A stretch of 64,000 bases of DNA, taken from positions 57,582,201 to 57,646,200 of the forward strand of contig NC_085843.1 in assembly GCF_035594765.1 (NCBI RefSeq). The letters run 5' to 3'. Shown piece by piece: positions 1 through 47,351 of this stretch. This stretch comes from Anolis carolinensis (Eukaryota). The notes beneath the pieces are model-generated. The model was not told the DNA's origin, did no database searches, and was given only the letters and a program-made list of their open reading frames with translations. How positions within the stretch are numbered: position 1 is the stretch's first letter; each line of letters opens with the position of its first letter. The position numbers and the translations under genes are program-made.

Positions 1-162
1 TCAATACTTAAAATGATTAAATGGACTATTAAAATTTACTCTCACTTTCAGGTTTAACCACTGTCATGTGTTGGACACTAAGGCGACTAGATATTGATAG
101 AGTTAACCTCAGAGAGAGCAATGGTTATTTTACTATGACTAAGCAGACAGGATCCATTAGTG

Positions 163-44625: not shown

Positions 44626-45606
44626 GAAGAATCAGGAGATAAAACAAATAGAAAGAAGAAACTAGATTTCCAACTGCAAGGTAGGTATGTGTGTCATGGC
44701 ATTTGTGAGCTATGTCATGGGGGGAGGAGGAGGAGGTCCCTGTTAAAGGCCATGCCCAGCAGCACGAAAACATGTTTAGCATGACTGGGCAGTGGAGACA
44801 CTCTGCCATCTCAGAGGTGGTTTAGGGAGTTTCTATCGAGCTGCTAAGCAGGTTCAATCTGAGCATTTTGGATGCCAGATCAAGCCCATGGAAATGGTCA
44901 GTCTATAGAGTACTTCCTGTATTTTCCATTTAGAAGATGCTGGGACAGTTCTGGTCTGGTTTTATAACCCCAGTGACCCGGTATTACACAGGTGGTTATG
45001 GGAAGATAGTACCTGGGTCTGAGTCTGTCAAAAGGAAGTTGGAAACCGCAGGCCACAGGAGAGATAAATCTCTGCAGAGGCAGCAACAGCAGAAGTTGGG
45101 TGACACAACTTGCCTTGTATATACCAGAAAGCATTTTCATCCCTCACAGGAAGGAAGAAAGTGGTTACCTGGACACTTTTGGATCTAAATTCACTTCCAG
45201 TTTTGAAACAGAAATAAATTTATTGATCAGTTTTTCAGATGATCTACACTAGAAGGAGTGTATTAGCTCTTGTTCTGCACAAGCATTTATCCGCCTCCAG
45301 CAAAAAAAAACAATTATGACATCTTTTGGTAGTATTTGCTTTGTTGAAGTGCCTCCAGTCCCATTTGGCTGAGTGTCTCAGCCACTCCCTTGGCTACTGG
45401 ACTCTCTCTGCTATTTAGTATCTATATGAAGCTGATGAGAGGTACTACCCACAATTTGGGAATAGAGAACCATAGCTATTCTTATGATACCATGCCTTAC
45501 TTCCAATTTTCAACTGACAAAGGGACTGTGGAAGTCATAAACACATATGTACACAATAAGAGACTGGAAGTGACTGACCAAATCAGAGAAGTCAGCTATA
45601 GCAGAA

Positions 45607-45908
45607 TGTCAGAACCCTGCTACTAGAGCCTGTATGTGGCTCTGAGTTTCAGGGTCACTGACATTGATAAGACACCTGCGTCTCAGGACTCGGAGAAGAA
45701 ACGGCTGCTGGACTTGGCGGGGAATTTGCGCGGGGTTTTACTGAGCGGGAAGAGACTTTTCAAATGAGGGGGAGGGTATATAAAGGATGGTTGGCCGGAG
45801 TCTCCCATTCTTGGCTTTTCTGATGTTTATGTTTCCTGCAGTAAAGCTTCTGGTGATATCACAGAGAGTCTCGTGTGTTCATTCAGGAGCGGCTGTGGTG
45901 AGCTGACA
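45607..45908 (+). repeat. 5' LTR
   Basis: TG...CA ends, TATATAAA at 45777-45784 and an AGTAAA poly(A)-like signal at 45840-45846. Confidence 0.95.
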
Positions 45909-45910
45909 TT

Positions 45911-45931
45911 AAGCCAAGAATGGGAGACTCC
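45911..45931 (+). promoter_or_regulatory. Self-priming primer-binding site (PBS)
   Basis: aagccaagaatgggagactcc is the exact reverse complement of LTR positions 45797-45817. It is not a TGG-starting tRNA PBS. Confidence 0.85.
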
Positions 45932-47305
45932 AGGGGAAACAACATACTCGCTGACGCTCTCTCTCGGATGCCTCAGCACGGGGGAGGAATTCAGGAATCT
46001 GAGGGGAGCCTTTTCCTAGATAAGCAATGGGGCCTGGCAGTACTGACTCGAGCACAAGCAGCCAAAGAAAACAAACGTACTGCCATTTCCACGGGGGGAG
46101 GAGAAATATGGGAGGAAGAGTTGAAGCGAGCATATGGAATGGACAAATGGTTACAAACGAACAAAGAACAGGGAGAACTGTGTGGGGATTTGGTGTTTGT
46201 TAATAAGAAATTGTATATTCCTGAATGTTTAAGACAAGAAATGTTAAGGAAATGCCATGATAACAAGGGTGCAGGTCATCTAGGCCCCACCAGGACTATT
46301 AAACTGTTGGCCAAACAATGCTGGTGGCCCGGAATGAGGAAAGACGCCAGGGGGTACGTCACGCAGTGTGAATTATGTGCAGAGGGCAAGACACCACCTG
46401 GGAAGCCCCAGGGGCTATTGCAAAAGGTGGTGGAGCCCATGAGGCCATGGGAATGCGTGGCAATGGATTTTGTAGGCGAACTACCCCCCAGCAGAGGCCA
46501 CAGATACATTTGGACAATATTGGACGTATTCTCAAAACAGGCACACTTTGTGGCCCTGCCAAAACTCCCCTCGGCTGAAAAGCTCGCTGATTTGTATGTG
46601 AAGCATGTATATCGCCTACATGGGTGCCCCGACAAAATAATTAGCGACCGGGGAGTCCAATTCACTGCAAAATTTTGGGGAAAATTCTTACAGCTGTTAG
46701 GAGCGGAAAGGAATCTGAGCTCGGCTTTTCATCCCGCGACCAACGGGGGGGTCGAACGTACCCAACAGACACTGTGCCAATTCTTGAGGATGTACACCAA
46801 TTATAGACAGGACGATTGGGCGGACCTTCTTCCGTTTGCTGAGATGGCTTTTAACGGGGCCGTACATTCGGCCACAGGTCGTGCCCCATTCGAAATAGTA
46901 TACGGACAGGAGGTGGCACCTTTCCCCAGGCTACCCGAGTGGAAGGAAGGAGAGGGCCAGACCGACAAGGAATGGCCGGCCAAAATTAAGCAAGGGTGGC
47001 AGACCGTGGTGGAGGCATTGAGGGAAACACAAAAGAAGTACAAGCTCTTTGCAGATCGTAGGCACCGAGAGGGGGACAAATTGGGCGAAGGAGATCTGGT
47101 TTGGCTGAGCACAAAAAACCTGAAATTGGGGTTCCCATCTAAGAAATTGGCTCCACGCTATATAGGGCCGTTCAGGGTAGCGAAAAGAATAAACGAAGTG
47201 ACCTATGAGCTGAGGCTACCCAAGGACCTAGGAAAGGTACACCCGGTATTCCATTGCAGCCTGTTAAAAAAGTATAAAGGAACTCTGGACAGCGGAGAAC
47301 AATAG
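45920..47305 (+). CDS. Uninterrupted Gypsy-type integrase ORF (461 aa) with a few RNase H C-terminal residues
   Basis: NILADALSR (RNase H end), HHCC zinc domain (CHD..GHLG..WWP..CELC), DDE core (MDFV, ISDRG, GGVER), GPY/F motif (RYIGPF) and HPVFH. No chromodomain. Confidence 0.92.
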   Translation: MGDSRGNNILADALSRMPQHGGGIQESEGSLFLDKQWGLAVLTRAQAAKENKRTAISTGGGEIWEEELKRAYGMDKWLQTNKEQGELCGDLVFVNKKLYIPECLRQEMLRKCHDNKGAGHLGPTRTIKLLAKQCWWPGMRKDARGYVTQCELCAEGKTPPGKPQGLLQKVVEPMRPWECVAMDFVGELPPSRGHRYIWTILDVFSKQAHFVALPKLPSAEKLADLYVKHVYRLHGCPDKIISDRGVQFTAKFWGKFLQLLGAERNLSSAFHPATNGGVERTQQTLCQFLRMYTNYRQDDWADLLPFAEMAFNGAVHSATGRAPFEIVYGQEVAPFPRLPEWKEGEGQTDKEWPAKIKQGWQTVVEALRETQKKYKLFADRRHREGDKLGEGDLVWLSTKNLKLGFPSKKLAPRYIGPFRVAKRINEVTYELRLPKDLGKVHPVFHCSLLKKYKGTLDSGEQ

Positions 47306-47351
47306 TTGTGTTTAATCTTTTCCTTCCAGGACGAAGGGGAGGAGGACGCCA

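What the first reader, a model, noticed from the sequence alone, without database searches (positions are those of the whole stretch)
45777..45945. tRNA-independent self-priming site with an over-long 21-bp match ending at the apparent deletion breakpoint
Seen: 45911-45931 is the perfect reverse complement of 45797-45817 in the LTR. The TATA box at 45777 predicts a start near A45807, so the first 11 nt of the transcript (ATTCTTGGCTT) would pair with the PBS. Established: Tf1/sushi elements self-prime this way, and Tf1 uses an 11-nt duplex. The unusual part is the extra 10 nt (gggagactcc), which are complementary to sequence upstream of the predicted start and abut the RNase H remnant. Inference: an upstream-initiated RNA gave a longer primer, and its copy mis-annealed near the RNase H end at plus-strand transfer. 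That would delete gag-PR-RT and create the MGDS start.
Basis: partly seen in the sequence, partly recalled or inferred. Interest (0 to 1): 0.7.

Follow-up and report, generated by a model that had tools for sequence, protein, structure and literature searches.

The report
Self-priming retrotransposon miscopies its own primer
This cut-down copy of a lizard jumping gene carries a scar that recurs in ten copies of its family: the primer-binding end of the new DNA is extended by a reversed copy of the element's own terminal repeat and then rejoins further along, likely a slip of the element's reverse transcriptase; the scars also mark the likely 11-base self-primer to the base.

Summary
The window holds a 2,047-bp Gypsy element with identical 302-bp LTRs and a 6-bp target duplication. 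Other copies carry only an 11-nt PBS/R match. Here 10 extra nt copied from U3 join the RNase H end through TCC, and 3.28 kb of gag-PR-RT-RH is lost.

The scar recurs: 10 of about 870 LTR-PBS junctions carry in-register U3 tracts of 5-369 nt, each with a different re-entry point. Point changes pile up at PBS bases 11-12 (85 and 65 copies, against 2 and 3 at bases 9-10), placing the primer end at A45807. The mirror event expected from host replication was not found (0 versus 10).

This supports an error at plus-strand transfer. Best reading (0.6): the PBS end re-primes on R of a plus-sense strand. An over-long primer remains possible (0.28).

HIV has a known analogue with tRNA inserts. This scan noted fold-back copies in another self-priming Gypsy clade. 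Verdict: new variant of a known kind; no RNA data.

The parts
45601..45606 (+). 5' target-site duplication (6 bp)
   Evidence: Same 6-mer at 47654-47659; run X1 carries the empty site, skipping 2053 = 2047 + 6
45607..45908 (+). 5' LTR, 302 bp, TG...CA ends
   Evidence: Identical to the 3' LTR
45777..45785 (+). TATA box
   Evidence: Sequence; 30 nt upstream of A45807
45797..45806 (+). Last 10 nt of U3: same sequence as the template of the extra tract
   Evidence: Reverse complement of 45922-45931
45807..45817 (+). Likely self-primer: first 11 nt of R; A45807 is the inferred start
   Evidence: Complement of the PBS in the family; variation steps up at PBS nt 11-12; start site not mapped by RNA
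45840..45845 (+). Poly(A)-signal-like AGTAAA
   Evidence: Sequence only; inferred
45911..45921 (+). 11-nt PBS, not tRNA-type (no TGG after the LTR)
45922..45931 (+). Templated tract: reversed copy of U3, in register with the R/PBS duplex; last 3 nt (TCC) shared with the RNase H end
45929..45961 (+). Re-entry point and RNase H C-terminal remnant; 3,276 nt of the longer copies are absent before it; a further 2-nt loss near 45939
45920..47305 (+). 461-aa ORF (MGDS...): RNase H tail plus integrase (HHCC, rve, SH3_Tf2-1; no chromodomain). Start codon formed across the PBS/tract joint; expression untested
47330..47351 (+). Polypurine tract
   Evidence: Sequence
47352..47653 (+). 3' LTR
47654..47659 (+). 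3' target-site duplication

Best explanation
The element is a deleted copy of a Gypsy family whose PBS pairs with the first 11 bases of its own R region, and the extra 10 bases were likely added by the element's reverse transcriptase during a failed plus-strand transfer. Steps: (1) Inferred: the RNA starts at A45807 and its first 11 nt prime minus-strand synthesis as in Tf1. (2) Inferred from Tf1: plus-strand strong-stop DNA ends with a DNA copy of that primer, which is the PBS sequence. (3) Inferred: that end is by construction a perfect complement of R+1..11. It sometimes anneals to R in a plus-sense strand (the U3-R end of a packaged RNA, or its own displaced DNA) instead of the minus-strand PBS, and RT extends it backwards into U3. 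(4) Shown as sequence, inferred as event: the extended end then joined the minus strand at the RNase H end through TCC, dropping 3.28 kb. (5) Shown: the product has two identical LTRs and a 6-bp target duplication, as integrase products do.
For: Recurrence: 10 copies have PBS + in-register U3 tract; lengths 5, 7, 9, 10, 12, 13, 19, 50, 96 and 369 nt (blast length for the last), with different re-entry points and 0-6 nt overlaps. Tracts follow each copy's own U3 variant; three variants seen. The PBS end is a natural 3' end: variants at PBS nt 9, 10, 11, 12 number 2, 3, 85, 65 against 720 canonical. These variants are scattered on a tree of 103 rows: e.g. 15 changes for 17 rows, 10 for 15 (FastTree, no shuffled control). 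14 of about 870 junctions are rearranged exactly at the PBS end versus 11 breakpoints in 145,642 internal nt, about 200-fold per base. Mirror control: 1 pattern hit, which is not in an element, so 0 versus 10 (p about 0.001 if symmetric). L166's tract runs through U3 into PPT and integrase sequence, not into its own flank. It differs from its own 3' region at one site where both alleles occur in other copies, which hints at a second RNA. L168, L169 and L171 show the same end copying inverted internal pieces. Papers, passages read: Tf1 cDNA often keeps a single-stranded PBS 3' end and gets non-templated bases (PMC11042837); Tf1 RT can clamp 2-nt overlaps in vitro (PMC3035444); RT extends folded-back HIV strong-stop DNA (PMC6088434).
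Against: For this single copy, re-priming and an over-long primer give the same sequence; only the family pattern separates them. L166 could also come from read-through in a tandem donor (two tandem pairs among the first 100 places listed; one confirmed, L179), or from a 3' R acting as primer. The L166 allele difference is one base. The title of Atwood-Moore 2006 (seen only in a reference list; paper not held) says the Tf1 primer is not removed, which would mask the PBS end. No RNA or cDNA data. Only a small sample of the 720 canonical junctions and 30 of the 85 nt-11 variants were read downstream, so counts are lower bounds.
Confidence: 0.6

Rival explanations
1. Over-long primer. The RNA that supplied the primer had a 5' tail: an upstream start, read-through from a tandem copy, or the 3' U3-R of another RNA cut and used as primer. 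Plus-strand synthesis copied into the tail, then mis-transferred.
For: Gives exactly this sequence. Direct analogue in HIV: tRNA inserts of 7-54 nt at deletion junctions (PMC12657518, passages). Tandem copies exist. Alternative start sites are known for Tf2 (PMC5341516, passages), although the ones shown there are at the U3/R border and downstream. The trans-primer version fits L166.
Against: Ten different tract ends; a start at 45797 is 20 nt from the TATA box; only 2 of 51 non-rearranged nt-12 variants have G, the first tail base. No tract enters host flank (1 of 10 is long enough to test). Inverted internal inserts in L168, L169 and L171 need re-priming anyway.
Confidence: 0.28
2. Host repair or replication after insertion. 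A break or stalled fork near the PBS folded back on the 11-bp inverted repeat, copied 10 nt and rejoined by TCC (snap-back SD-MMEJ or quasi-palindrome template switch).
For: A templated insertion plus 3-nt overlap is the snap-back signature (PMC5728401 and PMC2943611, search listing and abstract starts only). Any fold-back must start at the arm end. Contigs of X3, X8 and X9 run from the flank 26 nt into an LTR at this site (below the tool's 31-nt bridging rule), so an undeleted allele is not excluded.
Against: 0 mirror events versus 10. Four other rearrangements and 150 small changes sit at the same PBS end without using the repeat. 13 of 14 rearranged copies have identical LTRs. L166's tract carries an allele absent from its own locus.
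Confidence: 0.09
3. Assembly or library artefact at a hairpin.
For: The junction has no independent read support here.
Against: Ten different loci with different tracts, clean target duplications and own-LTR alleles. The insertion site itself is real, since the empty allele is seen in X1.
Confidence: 0.03

Closest known systems
Tf1/Tf2 and the Tf1/sushi group (self-primed Ty3/Gypsy; PMC10085805, PMC4600332, PMC6317226, passages read)
   Same: PBS complementary to the predicted RNA 5' end instead of a tRNA. TGTCA...TGACA LTR ends as in Tj1/Tosmo. Ty3/Gypsy domain order. Capsid's best solved relative is PEG10 (E = 5e-4).
   Different: No chromodomain after the integrase SH3. Mostly 6-bp target duplications (21 of 29) where the fission-yeast elements have 5 bp. 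RT phylogeny not tested. In-register U3 tracts after the PBS were not found described in the searches made; the primary Tf1 papers were not held.
HIV-1 delayed (aberrant) second-strand transfer proviruses (PMC12657518, passages read)
   Same: Intact LTRs, PBS followed by a variable-length insert continuing the primer, then a jump downstream that deletes the 5' coding region.
   Different: The HIV insert is tRNA-Lys3 copied past its modified stop base. Here the insert is the element's own U3, and one tract reaches beyond the LTR.
Self-priming (fold-back extension) of HIV-1 minus-strand strong-stop DNA (PMC6088434, passages read)
   Same: RT extends a strong-stop DNA end that has annealed to a complementary repeat.
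   Different: That is minus strand, in vitro, a dead end suppressed by NC. Here it is plus strand and the products integrated.
Snap-back SD-MMEJ / Pol theta templated insertions (PMC5728401, PMC2943611; listing only)
   Same: Templated inverted insert plus short microhomology at a deletion.
   Different: Strand-asymmetric here, and anchored at an RT intermediate end.

Membership tests
Ty3/Gypsy LTR retrotransposon | gag-PR-RT-RNase H-integrase order | tested here: met
   Pfam on a longer family copy; RT-RH best solved match is Ty3 RT, E = 7e-82
Ty3/Gypsy LTR retrotransposon | TG...CA LTRs, PPT, target-site duplication | tested here: met
Tf1/sushi group | PBS complementary to own R 5' end, no tRNA PBS | tested here: met
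   11-nt match in the family; LTR followed by CT/TT-AAGCC, not TGG. No search against internal tRNA halves was run.
Tf1/sushi group | Self-primer lies at the very 5' end of the RNA | tested here: inconclusive
   TATA +30 spacing and the variation step at PBS nt 11-12 support it; no RNA reads
Tf1/sushi group | Three-duplex 'pretzel' leader structure | tested here: inconclusive
   Normal leader folds with the R/PBS duplex and an adjacent U5 stem, z = -4.58; the third duplex and covariation were not tested
Tf1/sushi group (chromovirus) | Chromodomain at the integrase C-terminus (usual, per PMC10085805) | tested here: not met
   Integrase ends about 8 aa after SH3_Tf2-1; no chromo hit in the window ORF or L096. 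Not filed as a member.
Tf1/sushi group (chromovirus) | RT/IN phylogeny inside the Tf1/sushi clade | not tested
   No named reference set fetched; only a weak PEG10 capsid match
Tf1/sushi group | RNase H-dependent cleavage of the primer | not testable with these tools
   Biochemical
HIV-type delayed second-strand-transfer deletions | Insert after the PBS continues the primer in register and marks a deletion junction | tested here: met
HIV-type delayed second-strand-transfer deletions | Insert is tRNA sequence | tested here: not met
   Insert is the element's own U3

The most novel reading that the evidence does not exclude
Self-priming carries a built-in error: because the PBS end is antisense to R, about 1% of insertions of this vertebrate family come from the plus-strand end attacking (or being primed from) the 3' U3-R of a second packaged RNA. 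These scars would be genome-readable in vivo evidence for self-priming and for two-RNA template use in a chromodomain-less Gypsy lineage. Some products, as here, would be integrase-only expression cassettes behind an intact LTR promoter.
Probability: 0.3. Interest if true: 0.62.

Novelty: new variant of a known kind. Interest (0 to 1): 0.45.

Why it matters
In the papers read, self-priming is demonstrated for yeast Tf1 and proposed from sequence for vertebrate elements. Here the family's own insertion errors mark the primer end to the base (variants 2, 3, 85, 65 at PBS nt 9-12) and show what the plus-strand end does when transfer fails. This gives a sequence-only assay for self-priming that can be run on any high-copy LTR family, and a specific, testable failure mode. 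It links to the primer-insert class of defective HIV proviruses. The single window copy is a dead-end deletion product, not a new system.

Tried and rejected
(1) 21-nt match as a normal family feature: rejected, 0 of 29 and 10 of about 870 with any GGG tract. (2) tRNA 3'-end PBS: rejected, no TGG after the LTR. (3) Two plain deletions using the AGACTC 13 nt upstream of the breakpoint: weak; 5 of 53 TCC sites have a tract 6-mer within 15 nt upstream, and it does not explain the leading GGG or the nine other tracts. (4) Expression and start site: no RNA holder listed. (5) Junction in other individuals: no contig of 4 runs covered 45924-45938; contigs drop rare paths, so this is no evidence either way. 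(6) Mirror pattern: the one hit, L191, is a chance match outside any element. (7) Primary Tf1 papers (PMC1563812, PMC1369541, PMC231564, PMC109269) are not held, so they could already describe such cDNA ends. No supplements were opened. (8) The alignment failed for one reference (L182); that row was ignored. L180 could not be delimited. Rows dropped from the tree: the 14 rearranged loci and 7 with breakpoints or insertions; one locus is present twice (L059 = L159). (9) My notebook entry said all tract copies have 6-bp duplications; one search corrects this: 8 of 10 have 6 bp, L166 has 5 bp, L178 is ambiguous.

Full report
Anatomy. The window holds a 2,047-bp element at 45607-47653 with two identical 302-bp LTRs, a 6-bp target duplication and a PPT. 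A 461-aa ORF at 45920-47305 has the RNase H tail, the integrase zinc finger, core and SH3_Tf2-1 domains, and no chromodomain. Longer family copies are about 5.3 kb with gag-PR-RT-RH-IN order; RT-RH is closest to Ty3 among solved structures and the capsid weakly to PEG10. Earlier notes from this genome call the host an anole lizard (not checked here). Run X1 carries the empty site, so the insertion is real and polymorphic.

Observation. The 21-bp perfect inverted match is there (fold z = -9.07). In 29 other LTR-PBS loci the match is 11 nt (26) or 10 nt (3), never longer. The RNase H end reads TTCTTCC|AGGGG in other copies, so the window junction is PBS + 7 unshared nt + shared TCC. 3,276 nt are missing relative to L096/L098. 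The junction appeared once among 40 scored matches. A separate 2-nt loss near 45939, also seen at one other locus, is what puts the new ATG in frame.

Family survey. Exact patterns gave 720 junctions with the canonical base after the PBS, 65 with another base, 85 altered at PBS nt 11, 3 at nt 10 and 2 at nt 9. All 65 were fetched and read: 51 are small changes followed by the normal leader and 14 are rearranged exactly at the PBS end. Ten of the 14, including the window, continue with the reverse complement of U3 in register; an independent pattern found the same ten. Tract lengths are 5, 7, 9, 10, 12, 13, 19, 50, 96 and 369 nt. Re-entry points all differ, from the PBS itself (L172, L174) to integrase (L170), with overlaps of 0-6 nt or short extra inserts. 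Tracts follow each copy's own U3 variant. 13 of the 14 have identical LTRs; 8 of the 10 tract copies have 6-bp duplications, one has 5 bp, one is ambiguous. The other four are a forward jump (L167), inverted internal inserts (L168, L169) and a 5-nt insert (L176). All 30 of the 85 nt-11 variants that were read continue into the normal leader.

The PBS end is a natural 3' end. The step from 2-3 to 65-85 variants at nt 11-12 is what non-templated addition at the end of a copied primer would leave. Tf1 RT adds such bases and about half of Tf1 cDNAs keep a single-stranded PBS end (PMC11042837, passages). On a FastTree of 103 rows the variants recur across subfamilies (17 rows/10 changes, 17/15, 15/10, 9/8; no shuffled control, and canonical rows came from one subfamily). 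Together with TATA +30 spacing this places the start at A45807; this is inferred, as no RNA holder was listed. Per base, rearrangements at the PBS end (14 of about 870) are about 200 times as frequent as internal breakpoints (11 in 145,642 nt of 110 loci). Two of those 11 are nested insertions.

RT or host? A host fold-back at the 11-bp inverted repeat should occur on either strand. The mirror pattern gave one hit, outside any element: 0 versus 10. Contigs of four runs did not cover the junction, which is uninformative, and three of them show an LTR start at the site, so an undeleted allele is not excluded. I give host repair 0.09.

Which template? Against it: ten different ends; a start only 20 nt from TATA; G in only 2 of 51 simple nt-12 variants; and L166, whose tract passes the U3 start and continues through the PPT into integrase sequence, not into host flank. 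L166's tract also differs from its own 3' region at one base; the tract allele is in 40 locus records and the other in 2 (records overlap). L168, L169 and L171 show the same end copying plus-sense internal pieces. The simplest single rule is that the free PBS end primes on plus-sense strands, and R is its perfect 11-nt target. RT then drops off and rejoins the minus strand by 2-3 nt; Tf1 RT shows such clamping in vitro (PMC3035444, passages). A long primer from tandem read-through, or from a 3' R used as primer (a lead from note e1-7857552), gives the same products and keeps 0.28. For the window copy alone the two cannot be told apart.

Known versus new. It works like Tf1 self-priming (PMC10085805, PMC4600332, PMC6317226, passages). 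I do not file it in the Tf1/sushi group, because the chromodomain is absent and the RT tree was not made. The scar class has a published analogue in HIV: 44 proviruses with 7-54 nt tRNA inserts at deletion junctions (PMC12657518, passages). Searches found no description for self-priming elements, but four primary Tf1 papers were not held and no supplements were read. The scan noted fold-back copies in another self-priming Gypsy clade (e1-9913754; unchecked).

Verdict. A real feature and a recurrent reverse-transcription error; new variant of a known kind; interest 0.45.

Noticed in passing
family-wide; window 45601-45606 and 47654-47659: Target-site duplications are mostly 6 bp (21 of 29 copies; 4 are 5 bp, 3 ambiguous in AT repeats, 1 tandem), unlike the 5 bp reported for fission-yeast Tf1/sushi elements.
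   Followed up: partly
window about 46328-46345; L168, L171: Two independent inverted inserts start or end within 3 nt of each other, just before a purine-rich run: a possible internal plus-strand priming site.
   Followed up: no
L170 (G000:C3:40.12 Mb), 5' LTR: The 5' LTR lacks 167 nt of U3, ending at R+2, yet the copy has a 13-nt U3 tract after the PBS.
   Followed up: partly
L167 and L173, early gag: Two PBS-end jumps land within about 8 nt of each other at a site resembling the extended PBS end.
   Followed up: no
L179 (G000:C1:147.25 Mb); also C1:187.21 Mb: Tandem copies sharing one LTR, as described for integrase-independent Tf1 insertion; only L179 was fetched.
   Followed up: partly
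L187, L189: Deletions starting inside the PBS (after 8-10 nt) and landing within 15 nt of each other in gag: premature transfers.
   Followed up: partly
window 45607-47653: The insertion is polymorphic: run X1 has the empty site.
   Followed up: yes
window 45920-47305: Integrase ORF keeps its HHCC and D-D-E motifs behind an intact LTR; two upstream ATGs at 45823 and 45829; expression unknown.
   Followed up: partly
L065, L142: Other TGTCAGG-starting elements appear nested inside family copies.
   Followed up: no
window 47740-47830: Very high contig depth just right of the element suggests another abundant repeat.
   Followed up: no
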